Shown: one piece after another, positions 1 to 10,649 of the stretch
How positions within the stretch are numbered: the stretch's first letter is position 1
Layout of the letters: the number at the start of each line of letters is the position of its first letter
UHGV virus genome: UHGV-0292054
Reading direction: 5' to 3' (one strand)
Source: a virus
DNA: 10,649 bases
Position numbers and translations under genes: made by a program
Notes under the pieces: generated by a model
The model's database searches: none
The model's input: only the letters and a program-made list of their open reading frames with translations
Told to the model about the DNA's origin: nothing

Positions 1-855
1 TCAGCAGTTCGTCATCAGGGCGTCACCGCCACCACCGGTGGCCTTGCTGCGGCGCTGCTGGGTCAGACTTTCGGTGTGGTCGAGACTGTTTTTCAGGCGG
101 GTGAATGCCTGACTGGTTTCATCCGCCCTGTCAGTCACATCCTGCTTAAGTGCGGAAAAGGCGGTTTCCATCTCAGCGAGTCGCTGCTCAGTGGCGCTCA
201 GCTTTTCCTGCACATGTTCAGCAACAGCGGTCACCGCTTCATGCACGTCATTCAGACGGGCGTCATCGCTGGCCTGTTTGCGGCCAAAAATGGATTTCAC
301 CTTTTCGGTCAGGGCGGTGAACACGGTTTCAGGCAGGTCTTCAAATTCCAGCTCAACAGGCGTTGCCACTGAAATCAGGTTTTCAGGGCTTAATTTGAAG
401 CGGTTCAGGGGGTTGTGTTTTGCCGTGCGGCAGAATTCCAGGTATTCCGTGCCGAGGCTTGCCGGGTCATCGGTGACGGCCAGCCCCACCAGATAACATT
501 TGCCGGTGTTGGCAAAGTTCGGCTGAATTTCCATTGAGGTATAGACCTTCTGCGCGGCCTTGTTCATCGCGATAAGGTCATCGGTCGGGGTGATTTTCGC
601 AAACAGCGCCCATTTGCCTTTCAGCGCCGAATCATCGTCAATCTTTTCGGCCTTCAGTTCGGCCACATCGCCATAACGTTTAAAAATGCCGTCAGGCAGG
701 ATGCCGCGCAGATGTTCCAGGTTAATACGGCAACCATAGACTCGCGGGTCAAAGGTTTCGGCCATTTCCTGAATATCCTGCGCACTGATGACACGCCCGT
801 CACAGGTGTCACCCTCAACGCCGATACGAAAGAATTTTGAGACTTTTTTAGCCAT
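1..855 (-). CDS. O: Capsid scaffolding protein GpO (P2-like), full length, 284 aa
   Basis: ORF track 1..921 minus; the product from the internal ATG at 855 (MAKKVSKFFRIGVEGDTCDGR...) matches my recollection of P2 gpO in sequence and length. The TTG/GTG-extended start at 921 was rejected. Stop codon is at 1..3. Divergent from P as in P2. Confidence 0.88.
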   Translation of the reverse strand: MAKKVSKFFRIGVEGDTCDGRVISAQDIQEMAETFDPRVYGCRINLEHLRGILPDGIFKRYGDVAELKAEKIDDDSALKGKWALFAKITPTDDLIAMNKAAQKVYTSMEIQPNFANTGKCYLVGLAVTDDPASLGTEYLEFCRTAKHNPLNRFKLSPENLISVATPVELEFEDLPETVFTALTEKVKSIFGRKQASDDARLNDVHEAVTAVAEHVQEKLSATEQRLAEMETAFSALKQDVTDRADETSQAFTRLKNSLDHTESLTQQRRSKATGGGGDALMTNC

Positions 856-1028
856 TGTCAGGAGTCCTGAATAGTGAGTAGAGGAGTCACATGTCGGCAT
901 CAGTTTCCCGACGATGCGCATCCTCCGCCATCAGTCCCGGATGGCTTATCACTGACACAACAGCACCTTAGCGAATCGCGGGGCGCGACTCAGTAGCCTT
1001 GCCGTGTATTCATCACGGCGAGGTATTC
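856..1028. promoter_or_regulatory. Divergent intergenic region between O and P, expected to carry the Ogr-dependent late promoters
   Basis: 173-bp spacer between divergent late genes, same arrangement as the P2 O/P promoter region. I could not find clean TGT-N12-ACA activator dyads by eye, so the call is positional only. Confidence 0.35.
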
Positions 1029-2801
1029 ATGACCATCACCACAGACACCACTCTTTTACACGACCCGCGTCGTCAGGCGGCGCTGCTGTACTGGCAGGGG
1101 TTTTCCGTGCCGCAGATTGCCGCCATGTTGCAGATGAAACGCCCGACGGTGCAGAGCTGGAAACAGCGCGACGGCTGGGACAGCGTTGCCCCCATCAGCC
1201 GTGTCGAAATGAGCCTGGAAGCGCGGCTGACCCAGCTCATCATCAAACCGCAGAAAACCGGCGGTGACTTCAAGGAAATTGACCTGCTGGGACGCCAGAT
1301 TGAACGACTGGCACGGGTAAATCGCTACAGCCAGACCGGCAACGAGGCAGACCTTAATCCGAACGTCGCTAACCGCAACAAAGGCGGGCGTCGCAAACCG
1401 AAAAAGAATTTTTTCAGTGACGAAGCCATCGAAAAGCTGGAGCAGATTTTCTTTGAGCAGTCTTTCGACTATCAGTTGCACTGGTATCGCGCCGGGCTTG
1501 AGCACCGCATCCGCGATATCCTGAAATCCCGCCAGATTGGCGCGACGTTTTATTTTTCCCGCGAGGCACTGCTGCGCGCCCTGAAAACCGGTCATAACCA
1601 GATTTTTCTGTCGGCCAGTAAAACGCAGGCGTATGTGTTCCGCGAATACATCATCGCCTTTGCCCGTCTGGTGGACGTTGACCTTACCGGTGACCCGATT
1701 GTCCTGGGCAATAACGGCGCAAAACTGATTTTTCTCGGCACCAACTCCAACACCGCGCAGAGCCATAACGGCGACCTGTACGTCGATGAGATTTTCTGGA
1801 TCCCGAATTTTCAGGTACTGCGTAAGGTGGCATCAGGTATGGCCTCACAGAGTCACCTGCGCTCGACCTATTTCTCCACCCCGTCCACGCTGGCGCACGA
1901 CGCCTACCCGTTCTGGTCAGGTGAACTGTTCAACCGGGGACGTGCCAGCGCCGCCGAACGTGTGGAAATCGACGTCAGTCATAACGCCCTTGCCGGGGGG
2001 CTTCTCTGTGCGGACGGCCAGTGGCGGCAGATTGTCACCATTGAGGACGCCCTGAAAGGTGGCTGCACGCTGTTCGACATTGAGCAGCTCAAACGTGAAA
2101 ACAGCGCCGACGATTTTAAAAACCTGTTCATGTGTGAATTTGTTGACGACAAGGCGTCGGTGTTCCCGTTCGAGGAGCTGCAACGCTGCATGGTCGACAC
2201 GCTGGAAGAATGGGAAGACTATGCGCCGTTTGCCGCCAATCCGTTCGGCTCCCGCCCGGTATGGATTGGTTACGACCCGTCACACCGTGGCGACAGTGCC
2301 GGATGCGTGGTGCTGGCACCGCCGGTGGTGGCCGGTGGCAAATTCAGAATACTTGAGCGTCACCAGTGGAAAGGCATGGACTTTGCCACCCAGGCTGAAT
2401 CCATCCGCAAACTCACCGAAAAATACAACGTCGAATACATCGGAATTGATGCCACCGGCCTCGGTGTCGGCGTGTTCCAGCTCGTGCGCTCGTTCTATCC
2501 CGCCGCGCGTGATATCCGCTACACGCCGGAAATGAAAACCGCAATGGTGCTCAAGGCAAAAGACGTCATCCGCCGTGGCTGTCTGGAATACGACGTCAGC
2601 GCCACCGACATCACCAGCTCGTTTATGGCTATCCGCAAGACCATGACCAGCAGCGGACGCAGCGCCACCTATGAGGCCAACCGCAGCGAGGAAGCCAGCC
2701 ACGCCGACCTCGCCTGGGCGACCATGCACGCCCTGTTAAATGAGCCACTCACCGCCGGTATCAGCACCCCGCTGACATCCACCATTCTGGAGTTTTACTG
2801 A
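1029..2801 (+). CDS. P: Terminase large (ATPase) subunit GpP, 590 aa
   Basis: ORF track 999..2801 begins at a TTG; ATG at 1029 is preceded by GAGGT 5 nt upstream. Product MTITTDTTLLHDPRRQAALLYWQGFSVPQIAAM... matches P2 gpP in sequence and length. Stop TGA overlaps the Q start. Confidence 0.9.
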   Translation: MTITTDTTLLHDPRRQAALLYWQGFSVPQIAAMLQMKRPTVQSWKQRDGWDSVAPISRVEMSLEARLTQLIIKPQKTGGDFKEIDLLGRQIERLARVNRYSQTGNEADLNPNVANRNKGGRRKPKKNFFSDEAIEKLEQIFFEQSFDYQLHWYRAGLEHRIRDILKSRQIGATFYFSREALLRALKTGHNQIFLSASKTQAYVFREYIIAFARLVDVDLTGDPIVLGNNGAKLIFLGTNSNTAQSHNGDLYVDEIFWIPNFQVLRKVASGMASQSHLRSTYFSTPSTLAHDAYPFWSGELFNRGRASAAERVEIDVSHNALAGGLLCADGQWRQIVTIEDALKGGCTLFDIEQLKRENSADDFKNLFMCEFVDDKASVFPFEELQRCMVDTLEEWEDYAPFAANPFGSRPVWIGYDPSHRGDSAGCVVLAPPVVAGGKFRILERHQWKGMDFATQAESIRKLTEKYNVEYIGIDATGLGVGVFQLVRSFYPAARDIRYTPEMKTAMVLKAKDVIRRGCLEYDVSATDITSSFMAIRKTMTSSGRSATYEANRSEEASHADLAWATMHALLNEPLTAGISTPLTSTILEFY

Positions 2802-3835
2802 TGAGCAAGAAAAAAGGGAAAACACCGCAACCTGCGGCAAAAACAATGACCGCCAGCGCCCCGAAAATGGAAGCATTCACCTTTGGTGAGCCGGTGCCGG
2901 TACTCGACCGCCGTGACATTCTGGATTACGTCGAGTGCATCAGTAACGGCAGATGGTATGAGCCACCGATCAGCTTTACCGGTCTGGCAAAAAGCCTGCG
3001 TGCTGCCGTGCATCACAGCTCACCGATTTACGTCAAACGTAATATTCTGGCCTCGACATTTATCCCGCATCCGTGGCTTTCCCAGCAGGATTTCAGCCGC
3101 TTTGTGCTGGATTTTCTGGTGTTCGGTAATGCGTTTCTGGAAAAGCGTTACAGTACCACCGGTAAGGTCATCAGACTGGAAACCTCACCGGCAAAATATA
3201 CCCGCCGTGGCGTGGAGGAGGATGTTTACTGGTGGGTGCCGTCCTTCAACGAGCCGACACCTTTCACGCCCGGCTCCGTGTTTCATCTGCTGGAGCCGGA
3301 TATTAATCAGGAGCTGTACGGCCTGCCGGAATATCTCAGCGCCCTTAACTCTGCCTGGCTGAATGAGTCAGCCACGCTGTTCCGCCGCAAGTATTACGAA
3401 AACGGCGCACATGCCGGATACATCATGTACGTCACTGATGCCGTGCAGGATCGCAACGATATCGAAATGCTCCGCGAAAACATGGTGAAGTCGAAAGGCC
3501 GCAACAACTTTAAAAATCTGTTTCTCTATGCCCCGCAAGGGAAAGCCGACGGCATTAAAATTATCCCGCTCAGTGAAGTGGCAACGAAGGACGATTTTTT
3601 TAATATCAAAAAAGCCAGCGCCGCAGACCTGCTGGACGCGCACCGCATCCCTTTTCAGTTGATGGGCGGCAAGCCGGAGAACGTCGGGTCGCTGGGTGAT
3701 ATTGAGAAAGTGGCAAAGGTCTTTGTCCGCAATGAGCTTATCCCGTTACAGGACAGGATCCGCGAGATAAACGGCTGGCTCGGTCAGGAGGTCATCCGCT
3801 TTAAAAACTACTCACTGGACACTGACAACGGCTGA
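2801..3835 (+). CDS. Q: Portal (capsid-vertex) protein GpQ, 344 aa
   Basis: ATG at 2801 overlaps the P stop (TGATG), indicating translational coupling. Length and sequence match P2 gpQ. Transcribed toward cos as in P2. Confidence 0.9.
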   Translation: MSKKKGKTPQPAAKTMTASAPKMEAFTFGEPVPVLDRRDILDYVECISNGRWYEPPISFTGLAKSLRAAVHHSSPIYVKRNILASTFIPHPWLSQQDFSRFVLDFLVFGNAFLEKRYSTTGKVIRLETSPAKYTRRGVEEDVYWWVPSFNEPTPFTPGSVFHLLEPDINQELYGLPEYLSALNSAWLNESATLFRRKYYENGAHAGYIMYVTDAVQDRNDIEMLRENMVKSKGRNNFKNLFLYAPQGKADGIKIIPLSEVATKDDFFNIKKASAADLLDAHRIPFQLMGGKPENVGSLGDIEKVAKVFVRNELIPLQDRIREINGWLGQEVIRFKNYSLDTDNG

Positions 3836-3840
3836 ACATC

Positions 3841-3862
3841 GCCGCCTGCGGGCGGCTTTTTT
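3841..3862 (+). terminator. Rho-independent terminator downstream of Q
   Basis: GCCGCC-TGCG-GGCGGC hairpin followed by TTTTTT, 6 nt after the Q stop codon. Confidence 0.6.
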
Positions 3863-4004
3863 ACCCCCCGTCATCACGCCCTCACACGCTCACCACCGCA
3901 CAAAACAGCCCGCAGACACACCAACGCCCCGGCGCACAATCTAAACGCCATCACGACGCGCTCAGACGCTGAAAAAATAAAATCAGCACCACCGCCAGCG
4001 CGCA

Positions 4005-4023
4005 GTGCTTTCCCCGCCTCGCC
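4005..4023. other. P2-type cos site (19-nt cohesive end sequence)
   Basis: gtgctttccccgcctcgcc at 4005..4023 is the reverse complement of GGCGAGGCGGGGAAAGCAC, the P2 cohesive end as I recall it. Its position next to Q and its orientation fit the P2 map. Confidence 0.65.
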
Positions 4024-4169
4024 CGCCCGCTTCATGGGTCGGTTTTAATGCAGTTGCATGAACACCGTCAAACCTAGCTAGCATTGGCAGCAGAAAGCAA
4101 GTGAGCTAGACTAAAGCACATTCAAACTCATGCACCAAATGATGCACGGAAAAAACAGAGAAATCGCGG

Positions 4170-4199
4170 AAAAAGCAAAAAAATAGCACCCAAAGGTGC
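4170..4199 (-). terminator. Putative rho-independent terminator ending the cargo operon (minus strand)
   Basis: GCACC-CAAA-GGTGC hairpin at 4186..4199, followed on the minus strand by a T-rich run (plus-strand aaaagcaaaaaaata at 4170..4185). Lies just downstream of the stop at 4211. Confidence 0.45.
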
Positions 4200-4210
4200 C
4201 ACTTTGATGA

Positions 4211-4783
4211 TTAATTTTTATTGTCGCCAGAAGGTTTATTGTTGCTTTTGAACAAACCACTAACAACAAACCCAACCAATCCCACAATACTCACAGTTGT
4301 GGTTCCCATAAGCGCAATGATAATTGTTTCTGGTGGATCAAAATCTTTTTTCAATACATACATAAATATGACCCAGCCGACAAAACAACACCAAACAATC
4401 ATGAATTGATATGTTTTATCAGCCATAGTTCTACGGAGCTCATTGTCCGTAAGCAGGCCGTCGGTTTCCGCATTTTTTCTTTTGGTTTCTGCCTGTACGC
4501 TTTCAAGGTTAGTGCTTATAGTTTCAACACAGCGACTCAATTCAGCAATTTGAAAATTAAGACTGGATAAATCCAAACGCTGCATGGTCGCAGCATCCTC
4601 TTCTTCCTTTTGCATTTCATCAACAGCGTCCTCAACAGACTCAGGCTCATGAGATTCTTCATCCCAACAGCCCTCATCTCCCAAAGCCGCAGAGGCAGTT
4701 ATCAGATTCTGCTCAGCTTGCTGCAATCGTCTGAGAAGGTCTTTATCAAATTCAGCTGTCACTTTCTTATTATCGTCAGGCAT
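4211..4783 (-). CDS. Hypothetical membrane protein, 190 aa: acidic/coiled-coil-like N-terminal domain plus two C-terminal hydrophobic helices; candidate toxin/effector of the cargo module
   Basis: ATG at 4783..4781. Hydrophobic stretches QFMIVWCCFVGWVIFMYVL and TIIIALMGTTTVSIVGLVGFVVSGLF; acidic segment DEESHEPESVEDAVDEMQKEEED. AT-rich relative to the flanking phage genes. No homologue recalled. Confidence 0.6.
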   Translation of the reverse strand: MPDDNKKVTAEFDKDLLRRLQQAEQNLITASAALGDEGCWDEESHEPESVEDAVDEMQKEEEDAATMQRLDLSSLNFQIAELSRCVETISTNLESVQAETKRKNAETDGLLTDNELRRTMADKTYQFMIVWCCFVGWVIFMYVLKKDFDPPETIIIALMGTTTVSIVGLVGFVVSGLFKSNNKPSGDNKN

Positions 4784-4787
4784 AAAA

Positions 4788-4809
4788 AACCCCGTACATA
4801 GACGGGGTT
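4788..4809 (-). terminator. Intercistronic terminator-like hairpin (possible attenuator) between the two cargo genes
   Basis: Perfect 8-bp stem AACCCCGT / ACGGGGTT with a 6-nt loop, followed on the minus strand by a U-run that ends at the ATG of the downstream gene (4783). The only purine-rich candidate SD (GGGG) is inside the stem. Confidence 0.45.
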
Positions 4810-4823
4810 ATCTTAATTCGGAC

Positions 4824-5294
4824 TCATAGTCCGATGCAATTGCTATCGCCGTGTAGCAGCTTTTGATAGTAATCCTGAATAACGGAATCAGGAATGATAT
4901 CCATACGACTATCCATTGCTTGCTTCCAAGGAGTACCTTCACGATGTGTGAAAGCAGATAAATCCTCAGCGGTATATTTACCGTAAACGTTATAAACGTT
5001 CTGCAGCAACTGCTCAGTCATAGGGTCAAACTCCTGAGAAATTGCCGATGGAACTTGTATTGGTTGTGTTATGGGACTACGGCCATAAACTTTAAGATAG
5101 TTATACAGAACTGGAACCACTGGACCATAACGCCATGCACAAACTGGTGTCGTTAACAAAGGCGTCCCTTTGTAACCCAGATTTATACCATGTGCTATAT
5201 AGGTCAGCTTTTGTGCCTGCATCTGGGTGATTGGCATACCAGCCGCGCAAGCAAGTTCTATAAACTTATTCGCGATGTTCAATGGGCTGTACAT
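4824..5294 (-). CDS. Panacea/DUF4065-like protein, 156 aa (PanA/SocA-type candidate antitoxin or sensor)
   Basis: ATG at 5294 preceded by AAGGAGG 6 nt upstream; the track start at 5345 is a GTG and was rejected. The motif QKLTYIAHG...G.PLL...AWRYGPVVPVLY resembles the conserved core of PF13274 as I remember it. Sits directly upstream of the membrane-protein gene. Confidence 0.55.
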   Translation of the reverse strand: MYSPLNIANKFIELACAAGMPITQMQAQKLTYIAHGINLGYKGTPLLTTPVCAWRYGPVVPVLYNYLKVYGRSPITQPIQVPSAISQEFDPMTEQLLQNVYNVYGKYTAEDLSAFTHREGTPWKQAMDSRMDIIPDSVIQDYYQKLLHGDSNCIGL

Positions 5295-5511
5295 ACTCAA
5301 CCTCCTTTGCTGTCCTCTTATGTCACGAAAAGCAACCGAGAACACTCAATTTTTACCTATACCCGAGCCTTCAAGCCTGGAATTGTAAACGCTATATCTT
5401 AAGCATACTCAACATTGCGCGCGGAGTATAAATTTGATAGTGAGCATACACAATCAATAAACCATATATTTTTATAGAAATATACATTTATAGCATCTTT
5501 CCAGATTAAAG

Positions 5512-5531
5512 TACTGTATATAAAAACAGTA
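5512..5531. promoter_or_regulatory. LexA (SOS) box
   Basis: TACTGTATATAAAAACAGTA has CTGT-N8-ACAG with an AT-rich spacer, 18/20 matches to the consensus TACTGTATATATATACAGTA. Lies between the A stop (5572) and the cargo operon start. Confidence 0.65.
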
Positions 5532-5555
5532 TAATGATTTTTATCACACTTGCAA
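5528..5555 (-). promoter_or_regulatory. Putative sigma70 promoter for the cargo operon (minus strand), overlapped by the LexA box
   Basis: Minus-strand reading gives TTGCAA (5555..5550), a 16-nt spacer, then TATACT (5533..5528). The -10 overlaps the LexA box, the usual layout of SOS-repressed promoters. Confidence 0.4.
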
Positions 5556-5571
5556 CGCTGTTCATTTCAGT

Positions 5572-7754
5572 TTATATGAATCCCGGCCACTCATCAGCGA
5601 CCGGATACGTGAATTTTTTCCCGTCATAATTTACTGTTGCCCCACGCGCCAGCGCCTCAAGCTCCCATCGCTGCGGCCTGATACCGTTCTGAGCAAGGTC
5701 AACGCGGATACGGGTGATTTGCATTCTTTCCGACCGGGTCAGTCTGGCCGATGGTGCAATTTCATGTGGTTTTAACGGGCTTCCGTTTCTTTGCTGACGG
5801 TTTGGTCTTCTCAGGCCGTGTTTTAATGCGCTTCTGAGCGCCCTCACAACCTCCGGGTCATTCCATTCGATAACACCGTCATCAACCAGATTAAGCACTG
5901 CTGCGGCGTGCTCAGAAGGTGTGGGAGCCGGTAACGAAGTATCACCACCGTTGAGCTTTCCACAGTTATTGACAGGACTCCGAGGCGCGGCGATGCCGCT
6001 TTTTAAAGTCAAAGGCTCAACGACCGGAACTTTCGGCACAATGCGCCAGTCCGTCGTTCTGGTGATATGAATATGACGCGCGCCGAGATGCGGCGCGTAA
6101 ATGCCGACCACTCTCTCGACTTCTTCCTCGTACTCGTTAACTTCATCCGACGGGCTACGGGCGACTCTGACAGTCTGGCAATCGCGCGGAACATTTGCCC
6201 CACCCTGCGCACTGATATACAACGCAAAATCGCCACTGTCTGCGGCAGCGCGTGCAGCCTCGACGCGTTCGTCAAACTCATCAGCAATGCTGACGCCCAT
6301 GCAGTAACAGCCGCGGCAGTATCTTTCAGAGGTCTGCCGGTATCGTTATCGAGCTGACCATCCAGTGCATAGCCGTCGATGTTTTTTGAGATGTATTTCG
6401 CGATATACCCCGCAGCACCGCCCCGATTAAGGTGTTTTGCCTGAAAACGGTTTCGCGCTGCTCCTCTTTCGTCGCCATCCTCTTTGAGCGCATAGCGACG
6501 CATGATTTCGATAATCTGGTTACGCTGGCGCGAATTACAAAAAAGCATCATATGCCAGTGCGGCGTTCCGTCGTGGTGTGGCTCGACGACACGCAAACCG
6601 TAGACCTGTAAATCATTATCCTTGAATGCCGTGCGCATCAGGCTCCAGATGCGGCAGAGATAACGCTGCGCATCCTTTGGATTAAATGCCTCATCGTTCC
6701 AGCCGTGATTAAGCTGAACGGTTTTACTTTCGCCTTTTCTGACCTGACGAGTCGGGTGATACTTTGACGGCGCAGTCAGCGTGATAAACATCCCCACATC
6801 ACCCTCTGCGGCGGCGTAACGCTCAATACCGGCAATGGTGTTCATCAGCTCCATCCGGCGAATTTCAGGATTAGAAATACTGCCCATCACCTTACTGATA
6901 AGGTCGATGCGCTCGCCGGTTTCCCTGTTTTCAAGGTCACACGATTTAAGAAATTCCAGATTTGCCTGGCGGCGCGCACGCACATCACGAATGGCGTGTT
7001 TACTGGCATAAGGAGAACGGTCTTTATTGACCTCCCCGACAGCTATCAGTAACGCTTCATGCCAGCGCATACGCTGGCCTTTAAGCTGATGAGTCCACCA
7101 CTCATCGTTAAACAGACGGGCAATGGCAGAATATGCCTGCCTCGTGGTCATCTGCCCTTTACGGTATTTTTTCCAGTAGAGAGGGGAAATATTGAAAGCA
7201 CGTGCAGCGCCAGCAACATGACCATAGAGGTGAGCCTGCGCCTCATCCGTAAACAGCGATTCTTTTTCGCCATGCGCATCCACCCAGGCATCGCAGAGTT
7301 CCTCATACATCATGAAAAGCTGCGATGAGATACGGGCGGCAAACTTTTTCAGCTCCTTGTCATTCATCCCCGGCAGACGCGCATAATGGTCACGCTCTGC
7401 CAGAAACAGCAACGACGCGTCGGTGTTCATTTCATGGCGCTGATTCACACGCTCAATGCGCGGCCATAAACGACGCTGAAAAGTGGATGTGAGAAAATAA
7501 AACCCGTGCACCGGGCTTTTATTGCGCCGGATGTAGTCATAGCGTGAAGTAAACAGCGAGCGCAAAAAGTAAGGCAGGCGGTTAATCGTGGATAAAACAC
7601 CTTGCACCTGACGCATCTCGTCACGTGTAAGGGGTCTTTCGCGCCCGACAGCCTCGCGTGGCGCGTTCCATGCATAAGCACCGGTAAGCGCCTTACCGGT
7701 GCCTGCGGCAAATGCTGACGGAGGGACAAAACGCCCGGAGGCTTTAACGGCCAT
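5572..7754 (-). pseudogene. A: Replication initiation endonuclease gene A (P2 gpA family), interrupted by a frameshift or small deletion near 6295..6310
   Basis: Two overlapping minus-strand ORFs in different frames (6009..7796 and 5572..6300) both match P2 gpA: the N-terminal part MAVKASGRFVPPSAF...AGYIAKYISKNIDGYALDGQLDNDTGRPLKDTAAAVTAWAS and the C-terminal part GVSIADEFDERVEAARAAADSGDF...PGFI. The 93-aa tail of the long ORF is the out-of-frame reading of the C-terminal part. ATG at 7754 chosen over the TTG at 7796. Combined length is about 727 codons against about 761 recalled for P2 A. Confidence 0.7.
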
Positions 7755-8019
7755 ATGAGCCAAAAGCCTCTGAACAACGCTTGCTGAGTTGCTCAACCTG
7801 CACGTTTAAATCAGCAAAAGACTTTGCGCTTCCGGTCAGAATATCGTGATGCATCAGGCCTGAAACGAGCTGGCTTAATTTCGGGTAATAACCAACCACC
7901 GCCAGCCATTCCTGACCGGCGTTTTTACCGCTTTCAGCTCTCTTTTTCTCGTGGAGAATAAACTGAAAGCTGTCACTGGTAACGACATAACGTTCGCCAA
8001 TTTCAATACGAATACTCAT
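7744..8019 (-). CDS. Small early-operon protein, 91 aa (position of P2 orf83)
   Basis: ATG at 8019 overlaps the upstream stop (ATGA); ends 11 nt inside the A start. Typical coupled small ORF of the P2 early operon. Confidence 0.55.
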   Translation of the reverse strand: MSIRIEIGERYVVTSDSFQFILHEKKRAESGKNAGQEWLAVVGYYPKLSQLVSGLMHHDILTGSAKSFADLNVQVEQLSKRCSEAFGSYGR

Positions 8020-8240
8020 GCCGTTCTCCGGTAATGTTTGTTTTTTGCTTCAAAGACTGACTGACAGGAAACACAACGCGTGGCTGACGGGTAAGCCGCA
8101 CGACGGGCAGCAGGTATTGGCGCGTCACACTCTTCGCAAACCAGCGCAGAAGCACCGCAATGTTTTACCCTTGCCGCGTTAATCTGGCGCTCCAGTAATT
8201 CAGCCTGTTGTTCCTGAATAAAATCTACGTTGTCCGGCAT
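8016..8240 (-). CDS. TraR/DksA-family C4 zinc-finger protein, 74 aa (P2 orf82-like)
   Basis: Four cysteines in CGASALVCEEC...RCVSCQ, the pattern of phage TraR/DksA-like proteins. ATG at 8240 overlaps the upstream stop (TAATG). Confidence 0.6.
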   Translation of the reverse strand: MPDNVDFIQEQQAELLERQINAARVKHCGASALVCEECDAPIPAARRAAYPSATRCVSCQSVFEAKNKHYRRTA

Positions 8241-8542
8241 TACCAGTTCCTTTTGTCGTTCAGTTTTTTAAATTCATCAGCGCAATAGCTGGCGATTTCT
8301 GTCGTTAATTTCGTCAGTTCATCCACGGAGGAAATTTGCTTGTGAAATACAGCGCGTTTAACAAGTAAATTGACCACATCAGACAGGAGGTTTAATTCAC
8401 TCTGATAAATCGCGATAACAGATTCAGTTATTTCGCGTTTTTCTTTATCAAGACCAAGTTGAATAAGAGACAAATCGCCATTTTTCATAACGGCGATTTT
8501 TAAGGCATTGTTCAGTAAAACAACTGAACGAGAACAGGACAT
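8240..8542 (-). CDS. Hypothetical early-operon protein, 100 aa, AT-rich
   Basis: ATG at 8542 overlaps the upstream stop (TGATG). Visibly lower GC than neighbouring genes. No recognisable motif. Confidence 0.5.
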   Translation of the reverse strand: MSCSRSVVLLNNALKIAVMKNGDLSLIQLGLDKEKREITESVIAIYQSELNLLSDVVNLLVKRAVFHKQISSVDELTKLTTEIASYCADEFKKLNDKRNW

Positions 8543-8766
8543 CAAAGCACCTCCCCGCGAGACAATCCGATGTTGTGAAATTTTTCCGACTCCTGACTGA
8601 GCAGCTCGACTATCTCCACGCGGGATAACTCCGCCTTTGTGATGTGGCGAATCATGGCGTCAAGATGAGAAGAAAAGCGCGTCGCTGCATCGGCCTGTGC
8701 TTCGGTTCTGGCCTGTTGCAGCAGTAATGCGTATTTACCGCACTGATTTTCAGAAACTGTATGCAT
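8542..8766 (-). CDS. Hypothetical early-operon protein, 74 aa
   Basis: ATG at 8766 preceded by GGAGA; the track start at 8799 is probably a non-ATG extension. Product [21 protein letters not shown]... Confidence 0.5.
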
Positions 8767-8829
8767 GACTTTCTCCAGGCAAAAAGAAGCCCCGCACAAT
8801 TAAGTGCGTTAAAAACTCTGGTTAATTAC

Positions 8830-9336
8830 TTAATGCAGATATTGCTCTGGTTTTACCGACGTCAGAATTGTCGGTGCATACTCAAACAGGCTGAATAATT
8901 CACGTAATGCACGGAATAAAGCATCACGCCAGTAACATGACTCTTCATTAATTCGCCAGTATGGCTGGTTGAATTCTTTTTCAGTCAATCCGGCATGCAT
9001 AAATAAAGTGCGACGCTGACTGACTGTTAAAAAACTAATATATGCATACTCACTTGCGCCAACCTGACGGCGTTTTGAGAATGCCCCACGCAATTCATCA
9101 ATTGCACAAACCAGCCGTTCACGTTCGACGTCGTTCATTTCTTCAAAACGCATCGTTGCGTGACGCTGTTTTAACTGCGCATGAAAGCAAACCGTTAGCC
9201 GTTCGCGCTCCATCATCTGATTATAATAATCACATGTATCCTGCCAGCGAGGAACGGCAAGATGCTTACCAATTATCCGGCGCATAGCTGCTGGCTGTTT
9301 TTCAACGAGATTGAGCGTCATCACTGTCATTTCCAT
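8830..9336 (-). CDS. B: Replication protein B (P2 gpB-like), 168 aa
   Basis: ATG at 9336 preceded by GGAGG. Product MEMTVMTLNLVEKQPAAMRRIIGKHLAVPRWQDT... matches my recollection of P2 B in sequence, size (about 166 aa) and position. Confidence 0.75.
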   Translation of the reverse strand: MEMTVMTLNLVEKQPAAMRRIIGKHLAVPRWQDTCDYYNQMMERERLTVCFHAQLKQRHATMRFEEMNDVERERLVCAIDELRGAFSKRRQVGASEYAYISFLTVSQRRTLFMHAGLTEKEFNQPYWRINEESCYWRDALFRALRELFSLFEYAPTILTSVKPEQYLH

Positions 9337-9497
9337 ACCCTCCGGCTTTTCAGAAAGGTCAGAGCCTTTTTTAACGGACTCTGTTTTTTGGTGCGGATAA
9401 TGATTCCCTTACGCCCCTTACCGTGGGTGATGGTGAAGTCAATCGCCCTTGGGCTTTCGTTACGCAGTAACTGAGCAATACAACGCGGTTCACTCAT
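9327..9497 (-). CDS. Small hypothetical protein, 56 aa, between cox and B (position of P2 orf78)
   Basis: ATG at 9497 sits 2 nt after the cox stop (TGATTATG); stop overlaps the B start. The track's longer version from 9524 overlaps cox and is less likely. Confidence 0.4.
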   Translation of the reverse strand: MSEPRCIAQLLRNESPRAIDFTITHGKGRKGIIIRTKKQSPLKKALTFLKSRRVWK

Positions 9498-9499
9498 AA

Positions 9500-9772
9500 T
9501 CACAACCCCATCCACAAAAGCCATGCATCACGCTGTTCAACTGGTCGGTTATAAAACGCCTCTCGTACAGCGCGATTAAACTCTGGAATGAAAACCCACT
9601 TCTCACCGACACGAGCGTTCGGCTTACTTGGATCACGAAGCTCAATAACTGGCAATTTATTCTCTTTTACCATCTTGACTACAGCCGTTTCTGGCTTACC
9701 AAGTAACTCTGCAAACTTAACCGTATGTACCGCATCAATCGGGTACTGAATCACATAGTCATTGACTTCCAT
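9500..9772 (-). CDS. cox: Cox-like excisionase / transcriptional repressor, 90 aa
   Basis: ATG at 9772. The motifs KLPVIEL and GEKWVFIPEFN, the C-terminal DAWLLWMGL, the size and the first-gene position opposite C all fit P2 Cox. Confidence 0.7.
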   Translation of the reverse strand: MEVNDYVIQYPIDAVHTVKFAELLGKPETAVVKMVKENKLPVIELRDPSKPNARVGEKWVFIPEFNRAVREAFYNRPVEQRDAWLLWMGL

Positions 9773-9924
9773 TGATTAGCCCTTTTTGCTTTCGTGTTAC
9801 CCTTATTAGATCCAGTCCCTTCTAGGTCGCCCCTGTCCTTTCTAGGGACTGGCTAACACACTCAAAAGGTCACCAATACACAACCTTTTGACGGGAATAT
9901 AAGTCACCAATAGGTTACTGTCAA
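9773..9924. promoter_or_regulatory. Immunity switch region between cox and C (Pe/Pc promoters and operator repeats)
   Basis: Inverted repeat ccagtccct (9812..9820) / agggactgg (9844..9852). Direct repeats c(c)cttctagg / cctttctagg spaced about 20 bp apart. Direct repeat gtcaccaata at about 9870 and 9903. Candidate Pc is TTGACG (9888..9893), 17 nt, TAGGTT upstream of the C ATG. Confidence 0.5.
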
Positions 9925-10218
9925 ATGCAGACATTCGAAAAACTGAAAGCGATTAGGAAAGCAGAAGGCTTAACACAGGCGAAATTCAGCGAAATTAGCG
10001 GGATAGCTCTAGGAACAGTCAAAAATTACGAAAGTGGGCATAAAGACCCTGGTCTCAGCATCGTTATGCGAGTCACAAATACGCCTTTATTTAAAAAATA
10101 TACGCTCTGGTTAATGACTGGTGATACGTCACCACAAGCTGGTCAGATCGCGCCGGCTCTCGCACACATTGGGCAAAAACCAACAGAATCAGACCACTCC
10201 GAAAAACAGACTGGTTAA
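9925..10218 (+). CDS. C: Immunity repressor C (P2 C-like), 97 aa
   Basis: Divergent from cox. N-terminal HTH-like segment LTQAKFSEISGIALGTVKNYESG; C-terminal KYTLWLMTGD...GQIAPALAHIGQ resembles P2 C. Confidence 0.75.
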   Translation: MQTFEKLKAIRKAEGLTQAKFSEISGIALGTVKNYESGHKDPGLSIVMRVTNTPLFKKYTLWLMTGDTSPQAGQIAPALAHIGQKPTESDHSEKQTG

Positions 10219-10287
10219 CACTCTATAAACATTATATTTTCACCATTTGTTACCAAGATGGTGAATACAGCGTCAGAGGGCTTTCTT

Positions 10288-10533
10288 ATGTCAATTAAGA
10301 AGCTCGATGATGGACGCTATGAAGTGGACATTAGACCTCGCGGTCGCGACGGAAAACGCATCCGCAGGAAATTTGAAAGAAAAGCTGAGGCTGTAGCATT
10401 TGAGCGATACACAATCGCCTACGCCAGCCAGAAAGAATGGGCAGGTCAGCGAGCAGATCGCAGAACTTTGAGTGAGTTGCTGGACATCTGGTGGAAATAT
10501 CACGGGCAAAACCACGAGCATGGAACAAAATAG
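10288..10533 (+). pseudogene. int: Integrase N-terminal fragment (about 81 codons of an expected 337), truncated by IS2
   Basis: ATG at 10288; the track start at 10258 is an upstream ATG. MSIKKLDDGRYEVDIRPRGRDGKRIRRKFERKAEAVAFERY... matches the P2 Int N-terminus. The frame ends at a TAG formed by the first bases of the IS2 end. Confidence 0.8.
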
Positions 10534-10649
10534 ACTGGCCCCCTGAATCTCCAGACAACCAATATCACTTAAATAAGTGATAGTCTTAATACTAGTTTTT
10601 AGACTAGTCATTGGAGAACAGATGATTGATGTCTTAGGGCCGGAGAAAC
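10531..10649 (+). mobile_element. IS2 (IS3 family) left end, continuing beyond the window
   Basis: tagactggccccctgaatctccagacaaccaatatcactta matches the IS2 left inverted repeat as I recall it. About 90 nt later comes ATG ATT GAT GTC TTA GGG CCG GAG AAA, encoding MIDVLGPEK, the start of InsC/OrfA. Confidence 0.8.
10622..10649 (+). CDS. insC: IS2 transposase OrfA (InsC), 5' partial
   Basis: Starts MIDVLGPEK and runs off the window end. Confidence 0.75.

What the first reader, a model, noticed from the sequence alone, without database searches (positions are those of the whole stretch)
5572..7754. Replication gene A is split between two reading frames
Both halves of P2 gpA are recognisable, but the N-terminal part (to ...AAAVTAWAS) and the C-terminal part (from GVSIADEFDE...) are in different frames, meeting near 6295..6310. 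About 30 codons expected between them appear to be missing. This suggests an internal deletion that is not a multiple of three, which would inactivate the rolling-circle initiator. The P2 origin lies inside the A coding region, so the deletion may also touch ori.
Basis: partly seen in the sequence, partly recalled or inferred. Interest (0 to 1): 0.5.

Follow-up and report, generated by a model that had tools for sequence, protein, structure and literature searches.

The report
Frameshifted replication gene in decaying prophage
The replication-initiator gene of a P2-like prophage has lost 85 bases between two copies of a 7-base repeat, which shifts its reading frame and almost certainly kills it; this is ordinary prophage decay, not a new mechanism.

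Summary
Gene A lies on the minus strand, with its ATG at 7754. It is base-for-base identical to the intact 755-codon gene A of an E. coli prophage (strain 120899), except that 85 bp are missing. The deletion lies between two GGCGTCA direct repeats, and one copy remains at window 6291-6297.

The product has 488 native residues plus 93 out-of-frame residues and stops at 6009-6011. The last 241 codons survive in another frame (5572-6297).

The deleted residues 489-516 hold eight residues that are invariant from P2 to corticovirus PM2. The gene is therefore very probably dead, although the HUH motif and the two catalytic tyrosines remain.

The origin nick site (5968-5988, nick about 5981) is intact and lies 303 bp from the junction.

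The junction occurs in none of 5,426 complete E. coli genomes, 50,697 phage records, GTDB representative genomes, IMG/VR or JGI metagenomes. It is a private and very recent lesion. An assembly error cannot be excluded without reads.

An IS2 element also cuts the integrase gene at 10531, so this prophage is decaying. The finding is an ordinary pseudogene of low interest.

The parts
6291..7754 (-). Native N-terminal 488 codons of P2-type gene A (replication endonuclease). It contains the Pfam Phage_GPA domain (residues 133-462), the HUH motif and both catalytic tyrosines.
   Evidence: 100% identical to gene nt 1-1464 of the intact gene in L002. PF05840 E 1.3e-122. phrog_91 E 4.5e-239.
6552..6560 (-). 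HUH motif codons H399-W400-H401 (CAC TGG CAT)
   Evidence: Motif located. H399, W400 and H401 are invariant in the 7-member family alignment.
6393..6407 (-). Active-site tyrosine motif Y450-I-A-K-Y454
   Evidence: Found at the same positions as in P2 gpA and invariant. The role of the two tyrosines is taken from Odegrip & Haggard-Ljungquist 2001, as cited in PMC3986222.
6291..6297 (-). Deletion junction. This is the single surviving copy of the 7-bp direct repeat GGCGTCA (TGACGCC on the + strand). In the intact gene the two copies lie at gene nt 1458-1464 and 1543-1549, 85 bp apart.
   Evidence: The BLAST blocks overlap by 7 nt.
6009..6290 (-). Out-of-frame tail of the truncated product: 93 missense codons and a stop codon at 6009-6011. 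The same DNA is also the start of the stranded C-terminal coding remnant.
   Evidence: Translation; ORF list.
5572..6300 (-). Stranded C-terminal remnant of gene A. It holds 241 native codons starting at GVSIADEFDE, plus the stop at 5572-5574. The ATG at 6298-6300 is fortuitous: it comes from GC-ATG-GG in the upstream frame and has no Shine-Dalgarno-like sequence in front of it.
   Evidence: 100% identical to gene nt 1550-2268 of L002. phrog_91 profile positions 534-744, E 1.8e-73. Upstream 25 nt shown.
5968..5988 (-). Origin of replication (gpA nick site, nick at about 5981). It is intact and lies inside the stranded C-terminal remnant.
   Evidence: Identical to the rep_origin feature of phage fiAA91-ss. 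60 of 61 nt around the annotated P2 nick site (AF063097 nt 29892) are identical.

Best explanation
This is a recently pseudogenised copy of replication gene A in a P2-like (Peduovirus) prophage of E. coli or a close relative.

An 85-bp segment was lost between two 7-bp direct repeats (GGCGTCA), and one copy was kept. That is the signature of slipped-strand mispairing, or microhomology-mediated deletion, during replication or repair.

Because 85 is not a multiple of three, translation from the normal ATG reads 488 native residues, then 93 wrong-frame residues, and stops 28 nt before the origin nick site. The last 241 codons are no longer translated.

The truncated protein keeps the HUH metal-binding motif and tyrosines Y450 and Y454. 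It lacks the family-invariant block W490-I492-Q494-F495-G499-R507-E508-R510 and all of the conserved C-terminal third. It is therefore most likely unable to initiate rolling-circle replication.

By the classical P2 literature, gpA acts in cis. A second P2-like prophage would therefore not be expected to rescue it. The origin DNA itself is untouched.

With the IS2 insertion that truncates the integrase gene, the prophage can probably neither excise nor replicate. It is a decaying element locked in the chromosome.

Shown directly: the deletion, the repeats, the frames, the intact ori, and the absence of the junction elsewhere. Inferred: the slippage mechanism, loss of function, and that the lesion is biological rather than an assembly error.
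For: - The window is 99.98% identical to the prophage of E. coli 120899 over 10.4 kb. The alignment falls in two blocks that overlap by 7 nt and skip 85 nt of the reference.
- The exact reconstruction shows a GGCGTCA repeat at both ends of the lost segment and zero other differences across the 2183 nt of the gene.
- All 25 listed phage records, and all 30 E. coli records listed in each, align in two pieces with a record span 85 nt longer than the query span.
- The junction 41-mer or 40-mer is absent from 5,426 complete E. coli genomes, 50,697 phage records, GTDB representatives, IMG/VR and JGI metagenomes. A control 41-mer taken 30 nt away finds 426 records.
- The deleted residues 489-516 carry 8 invariant columns in an alignment spanning P2, a 186-like phage, HP1, K139/kappa, a Burkholderia phage and corticovirus PM2 P12. 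The most distant tblastn matches all extend to residues 511-518, so the conserved core ends inside the deleted block.
- HUH, Y450 and Y454 are retained and ori is intact.
- Gene A holds 17 direct-repeat pairs of at least 7 bp within 150 bp of each other, so such a deletion needs no special cause.
- IS2 cuts int at 10531.
- Other truncated or frameshifted gpA forms exist in public data: P0001, P0003, P0033, P0065 and P0091.
Against: - No read data are available, so a sequencing or assembly artefact, or a deliberate edit of the sequence, cannot be excluded. The allele is seen nowhere else.
- Loss of function is inferred from conservation and has not been measured. The catalytic motifs survive, and no experimental work on the C-terminal third of gpA was retrieved.
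- The AlphaFold model of the intact protein was too poor (mean pLDDT 45) to show what the deleted block does structurally.
Confidence: 0.85

Rival explanations
1. The 85-bp gap is not biological. It could be an assembly or consensus error, for example a mis-join where the genome holds two or three P2-like prophages, or an edit introduced into the sequence.
For: - The junction is unique among all collections searched.
- The exact products are absent from the protein collection.
- Many E. coli genomes carry 2-3 P2-like copies, which can confuse assemblers.
- The rest of the gene has no other change.
Against: - An 85-bp loss bounded exactly by a 7-bp direct repeat is the classic form of a real slippage deletion. 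A 7-bp repeat is far shorter than assembler k-mers. Typical long-read errors are 1-2-bp homopolymer indels. These points rest on established knowledge and are an inference here.
- The same window carries a second private lesion, IS2 in int, whose junction is also absent from all 5,426 genomes. That fits a genuinely distinct, decaying prophage.
Confidence: 0.1
2. The gene is still functional as a split gene. The N-terminal nuclease fragment and a C-terminal fragment started at the new in-frame ATG (6298-6300) would reassemble. Alternatively, the ribosome would shift frame to restore a full-length protein.
For: - The deletion happens to place an ATG in frame with the C-terminal part.
- The HUH motif, the tyrosines and ori are all intact.
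Against: - The 28 deleted residues include 8 family-invariant positions, and neither fragment can supply them.
- There is no Shine-Dalgarno-like sequence ahead of the ATG.
- The upstream frame runs 93 codons past the ATG, so termination-reinitiation coupling is not available.
- No relative shares the junction, so there is no conservation of the kind expected of programmed recoding.
Confidence: 0.02
3. The truncated HUH/tyrosine protein has been kept for a new role, for example interfering with the replication of incoming P2-like phages by binding or nicking their origins without completing initiation.
For: - The catalytic half is intact and still sits behind the early-operon genes.
- The prophage keeps its cargo and immunity genes, identical to the reference.
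Against: - The allele is private to this one sequence and has no other substitution. That points to a very recent neutral event, not a selected variant.
- In a P2 lysogen the early operon that contains A is repressed by C (established P2 biology, from memory).
- gpA acts in cis (classical literature, from memory).
Confidence: 0.03

Closest known systems
Intact gene A of the P2-like prophage of E. coli 120899 (NZ_CP025916.1, WP_000268607.1, 'replication endonuclease', 755 aa)
   Same: All 2183 nt present in the window are identical. The neighbours are the same on both sides: orf83/82/81/80, B, cox, C and int upstream, and the Panacea gene, the DUF2975 gene, portal and terminase downstream. There is one synonymous difference in 10.4 kb.
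   Different: The window lacks gene nt 1465-1549 (85 bp), so its frame is broken. It also has IS2 in int.
Bacteriophage P2 gpA (AF063097, AAD03306.1, 761 aa), the HUH rolling-circle initiator that nicks ori inside its own gene
   Same: About 97% nucleotide identity. It has the same HUH motif, the same Y450/Y454 motif and the same ori nick sequence.
   Different: P2 gpA is full length. The window allele is truncated after residue 488. The last residues differ (…PGFI versus …PGFSTVMEWT). P2 carries orf91, tin and old downstream, where the window carries the Panacea and DUF2975 genes.
Other truncated or frameshifted gpA sequences in public assemblies (P0001 584 aa, P0003 475 aa, P0033 475 aa, P0065 553 aa with an internal loss, P0091 516 aa)
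   Same: These are the same gene at 98-100% identity, broken by indels. This shows that decay of gene A in resident P2-like prophages is common.
   Different: Each has a different break point, and none has the 6291-6297 junction.

Membership tests
P2 gpA family of HUH rolling-circle replication initiators (Pfam PF05840 Phage_GPA; PHROG 91) | Significant match to the family profile | tested here: met
   PF05840: 409 bits against a cut-off of 31.4, residues 133-462. phrog_91: E 4.5e-239 for the N-terminal part and 1.8e-73 for the C-terminal part.
P2 gpA family of HUH rolling-circle replication initiators (Pfam PF05840 Phage_GPA; PHROG 91) | HUH metal-binding motif | tested here: met
   H399-W-H401 is present at window 6552-6560 and invariant in alignment A1.
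P2 gpA family of HUH rolling-circle replication initiators (Pfam PF05840 Phage_GPA; PHROG 91) | Two active-site tyrosines, YxxxY (Y450, Y454 in P2) | tested here: met
   YIAKY is present at window 6393-6407. Their role is as cited in PMC3986222.
P2 gpA family of HUH rolling-circle replication initiators (Pfam PF05840 Phage_GPA; PHROG 91) | Family-invariant block after the tyrosines (W490, I492, Q494, F495, G499, R507, E508, R510) | tested here: not met
   Residues 489-516 are deleted. The window therefore holds a broken member of the family, not a functional one.
P2 gpA family of HUH rolling-circle replication initiators (Pfam PF05840 Phage_GPA; PHROG 91) | One continuous ORF of about 755-765 codons that includes the conserved C-terminal third | tested here: not met
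   The frame breaks at 6291-6297. The products would be 581 aa and an untranslated 241-codon remnant.
P2 gpA family of HUH rolling-circle replication initiators (Pfam PF05840 Phage_GPA; PHROG 91) | Origin nick sequence inside the gene | tested here: met
   GCGCCTCGGAGTCCTGTCAAT at window 5968-5988 is identical to the annotated origin of fiAA91-ss and to P2.
P2 gpA family of HUH rolling-circle replication initiators (Pfam PF05840 Phage_GPA; PHROG 91) | Nicking-joining activity and support of ori-dependent replication | not testable with these tools
   This needs biochemistry or a replication assay.
Pseudogene made by slipped-strand (direct-repeat) deletion | In the ancestral allele the lost segment is bounded by a short direct repeat, and one copy remains | tested here: met
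   GGCGTCA lies at gene nt 1458-1464 and 1543-1549 of L002, with a single copy in the window.
Pseudogene made by slipped-strand (direct-repeat) deletion | Length not divisible by three, with a premature stop | tested here: met
   85 nt are lost, and the stop falls at 6009-6011 after 93 wrong-frame codons.
Pseudogene made by slipped-strand (direct-repeat) deletion | The lesion is present in the organism's DNA and is not only an assembly product | not testable with these tools
   No reads are available, and the source genome was not found in any collection.
Programmed ribosomal frameshift or naturally split gene | The frame change is conserved among relatives | tested here: not met
   The junction is absent from all E. 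coli genomes and phage records, although about 1,600 E. coli genomes and 88 phage records carry the gene.

The most novel reading that the evidence does not exclude
The most novel reading not excluded is that the 581-aa product is made and is useful. It keeps the HUH motif and both tyrosines but lacks the conserved post-tyrosine block and the C-terminal third. It might act as a dominant-negative or abortive nickase that interferes with the origins of superinfecting P2-like phages. That would turn a dead replication gene into an exclusion function.
Probability: 0.03. Interest if true: 0.35.

Novelty: already known. Interest (0 to 1): 0.08.

Why it matters
Its value is mainly for annotation. Gene A at 5572-7754 (minus strand) should be marked as a pseudogene, and the prophage as defective because int is also cut by IS2. 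The case gives a dated example of how resident P2-like prophages are disabled. There are two independent lesions on a background that otherwise differs by one synonymous base in 10.4 kb from an intact prophage, while the immunity and cargo genes remain untouched. It does not open a new question.

Tried and rejected
- **Structure of the deleted block.** An AlphaFold2 model of an intact homologue (P0002, with a 50-sequence alignment of 72-85% identity) reached only mean pLDDT 45, and below 50 for residues 422-639. It was not used, and no fold search was run.
- **Solved structures.** A sequence search of the PDB with the intact protein found nothing.
- **NCBIfam.** No model matches gpA.
- **PADLOC.** No match for the truncated gpA or for the two cargo proteins.
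- **A hairpin that might have favoured the deletion.** The intact 111-nt stretch folds no better than shuffles (z = 0.65), so this idea was dropped.
- **Finding the source genome or a sister isolate.**
  - Exact-product look-ups for the 581-, 595- and 242-aa ORFs found nothing.
  - Exact junction scans of GTDB genomes, IMG/VR and JGI metagenomes found nothing.
  - Scans for the int::IS2 junction in GTDB genomes and JGI metagenomes found nothing.
  - The order of the two lesions could therefore not be established.
- **RNA genes.** Rfam and tRNA scans of the window were empty.
- **Literature.** The primary paper on the P2 nick site (PMC332061) is not held. The extent of ori beyond the annotated 21 bp therefore rests on database annotations and on PMC3986222.
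- **Programmed frameshift or split-gene readings.** These were rejected. The reasons are given under the rival explanations.

Full report
**What is in the window**

The window is the early and replication half, plus the start of the late region, of a P2-like (Peduovirus) prophage. In window order the genes are:

| Window coordinates | Strand | Gene |
|---|---|---|
| 1-921 | - | gpO scaffold |
| 1029-2801 | + | terminase ATPase |
| 2801-3835 | + | portal |
| 4211-4783 and 4824-5345 | - | two cargo genes |
| 5572-7754 | - | gene A |
| 7744-9336 | - | orf83, orf82, orf81, orf80 and B |
| 9500-9772 | - | cox |
| 9925-10218 | + | C repressor |
| from 10288 | + | int |

The window is 99.98% identical to a prophage next to cpxP in E. 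coli strain 120899 (locus L002). Window 100-6297 aligns with one mismatch in 6198 bases. Window 6291-10533 aligns with one mismatch in 4243 bases.

**Checking the observation**

The finding is correct, but the gene is on the minus strand.

- From the ATG at 7754 the frame runs to a stop at 6009-6011.
- A second ORF in another frame runs from 6300 to 5572.
- Against PHROG 91 ('nicking at origin of replication') the first product covers profile positions 9-503 (E 4.5e-239). The second covers 534-744 (E 1.8e-73). About 30 profile positions are absent.
- The two BLAST blocks against L002 overlap by 7 nt in the window (6291-6297) and skip 85 nt of the reference.
- A base-by-base reconstruction shows that gene nt 1-1464 and 1550-2268 of the intact 2268-nt gene are present without a single mismatch. 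The 85 nt between them are gone.
- The heptamer GGCGTCA stands at both ends of the lost segment (gene nt 1458-1464 and 1543-1549), with one copy retained.

**Is the junction found elsewhere?**

No. In every listed match the record span exceeds the query span by 85 nt and the alignment comes in two pieces. This holds for 25 of 88 phage records and for the 30 records listed in each of two searches, which matched 1,604 and 1,458 E. coli records.

I used a 41-nt query centred on the junction. It leaves fewer than 28 matching bases on each side, so intact alleles cannot seed a match.

| Query | Collection | Result |
|---|---|---|
| 41-nt junction | 5,426 complete E. coli genomes | no match |
| 41-nt junction | 50,697 phage records | no match |
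| control 41-mer, 30 nt away | 5,426 complete E. coli genomes | 426 records |
| 40-nt junction, exact scan | GTDB representative genomes | no match |
| 40-nt junction, exact scan | IMG/VR | no match |
| 40-nt junction, exact scan | JGI metagenomes | no match |

The exact products are not in the protein collection either. The allele is private to this sequence.

**What is lost**

The intact protein has 755 residues. The window allele encodes residues 1-488 followed by 93 wrong-frame residues.

The following are upstream of the break and intact:

- the Pfam Phage_GPA domain, residues 133-462;
- the HUH motif, H399-W-H401, at window 6552-6560;
- the two active-site tyrosines, Y450 and Y454, at window 6393-6407.

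PMC3986222 cites Odegrip & Haggard-Ljungquist 2001 for the role of the tyrosines.

The deleted residues 489-516 (TWRIPQFKTVGLPTMGAYRELRKLPR) are not a linker. I aligned P2, the E. coli allele, a 186-like phage, HP1, K139/kappa, a Burkholderia phage and corticovirus PM2 protein P12. In that alignment the block holds eight invariant columns: W490, I492, Q494, F495, G499, R507, E508 and R510.

The most distant tblastn matches all extend to query residues 511-518. The universally conserved core therefore ends inside the deleted block.

Further invariant positions downstream are out of frame: A533, G546, G547, Y570, R594, N625 and C626. I infer that the product cannot initiate replication. This is an inference from conservation and has not been measured.

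**The origin**

P2's annotated nick site (AF063097 nt 29892, inside gene A) maps to window 5981, and 60 of the 61 surrounding bases are identical. The 21-bp rep_origin feature of phage fiAA91-ss maps to 5968-5988 with no mismatch.

The origin therefore lies 303 bp downstream of the junction and is intact. I could not retrieve the primary paper on the nick site. An unannotated auxiliary site in the deleted 85 bp cannot be formally excluded, but nothing points to one.

**How it happened**

A deletion bounded by a short direct repeat with one copy retained is the textbook outcome of slipped-strand mispairing, or microhomology-mediated repair. This rests on established knowledge and is an inference here.

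The intact gene contains 17 direct-repeat pairs of at least 7 bp within 150 bp of each other, so the substrate is commonplace. The deleted stretch has no unusual secondary structure (z = 0.65).

The gene carries no other change, and the whole 10.4 kb differs from L002 by one synonymous C/T at 2567. The event is therefore very recent.

**Context**

The integrase gene (ATG at 10288) is cut after codon 81 by the left end of IS2, which begins at 10531 and supplies a TAG stop. No complete E. coli genome has that junction, nor do the GTDB or JGI collections.

The prophage thus carries two independent, private, inactivating lesions, one in excision and one in replication. Its immunity and cargo genes are identical to the reference.

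Public data hold several other broken gpA forms with different break points: P0001, P0003, P0033, P0065 and P0091. This is the usual pattern of prophage decay.

**Rival readings**

- **Assembly or editing artefact.** This cannot be ruled out without reads. I give it about 0.1. The repeat-bounded form of the lesion and the second private lesion both argue for a real, distinct genome.
- **Functional split gene or programmed frameshift.** This is very unlikely. The invariant block is physically absent. The fortuitous ATG at 6298-6300 has no ribosome-binding sequence. The junction is not conserved.
- **A new role for the truncated nickase.** This is not excluded, but it has no support. A private allele with no further change looks neutral and recent.

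**Verdict**

The remark about ori is refuted. The feature is an ordinary prophage pseudogene: an already known kind of event, of low interest, and useful mainly for correct annotation.

Noticed in passing
window 10288-10649: The integrase gene (ATG at 10288) is interrupted after codon 81 by the left end of IS2, which starts at 10531 (TAGACTGGCCCC…) and supplies an in-frame TAG. This int::IS2 junction is absent from all 5,426 complete E. coli genomes, the GTDB representatives and the JGI metagenomes. The prophage has therefore probably also lost excision.
   Followed up: yes
window 4211-5345 (minus strand): The slot between gene A and the portal gene holds two cargo genes. P2 carries orf91, tin and old at this place. 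The first cargo gene encodes a Panacea-domain protein (PF13274, E 1.9e-17; 5345-4824). The second encodes a 190-aa protein with a weak DUF2975 match (E 1.6e-4, below the Pfam cut-off; 4783-4211). The antitoxin-like gene comes first, so the layout looks like a PanA-type toxin-antitoxin or defence pair. Neither protein matches PADLOC, and both PHROG families are of unknown function.
   Followed up: partly
window 5968-5988; alignment A1 columns around N625/C626: The family-invariant peptide …AAPRSPVNNC… is encoded by the origin nick sequence itself (GCGCCTCGG/AGTCCTGTCAATAAC). Conservation of these residues across distant relatives may therefore reflect a constraint on the DNA (ori) as much as on the protein.
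   Followed up: partly
proteins P0001, P0003, P0033, P0065, P0091, P0038: Public assemblies contain several other frameshifted or internally deleted gpA sequences, 98-100% identical to this one (P0038 is 84% identical), each with a different break point. Two of them stand for clusters of about 1,000 member sequences. Loss of gene A seems to be a recurrent route of P2-like prophage decay.
   Followed up: partly
window 5572-5580 versus P2 (L003 3290-3320): Homology to P2 and other Peduovirus phages stops within a few codons of the end of gene A (…PGFI* here, …PGFSTVMEWT* in P2). The boundary of the variable cargo locus therefore sits inside the last codons of A.
   Followed up: no
window 2567: Apart from the deletion and IS2, the only difference from the E. 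coli 120899 prophage in 10.4 kb is a C/T change at the third position of a valine codon in the terminase ATPase gene. It is synonymous.
   Followed up: yes
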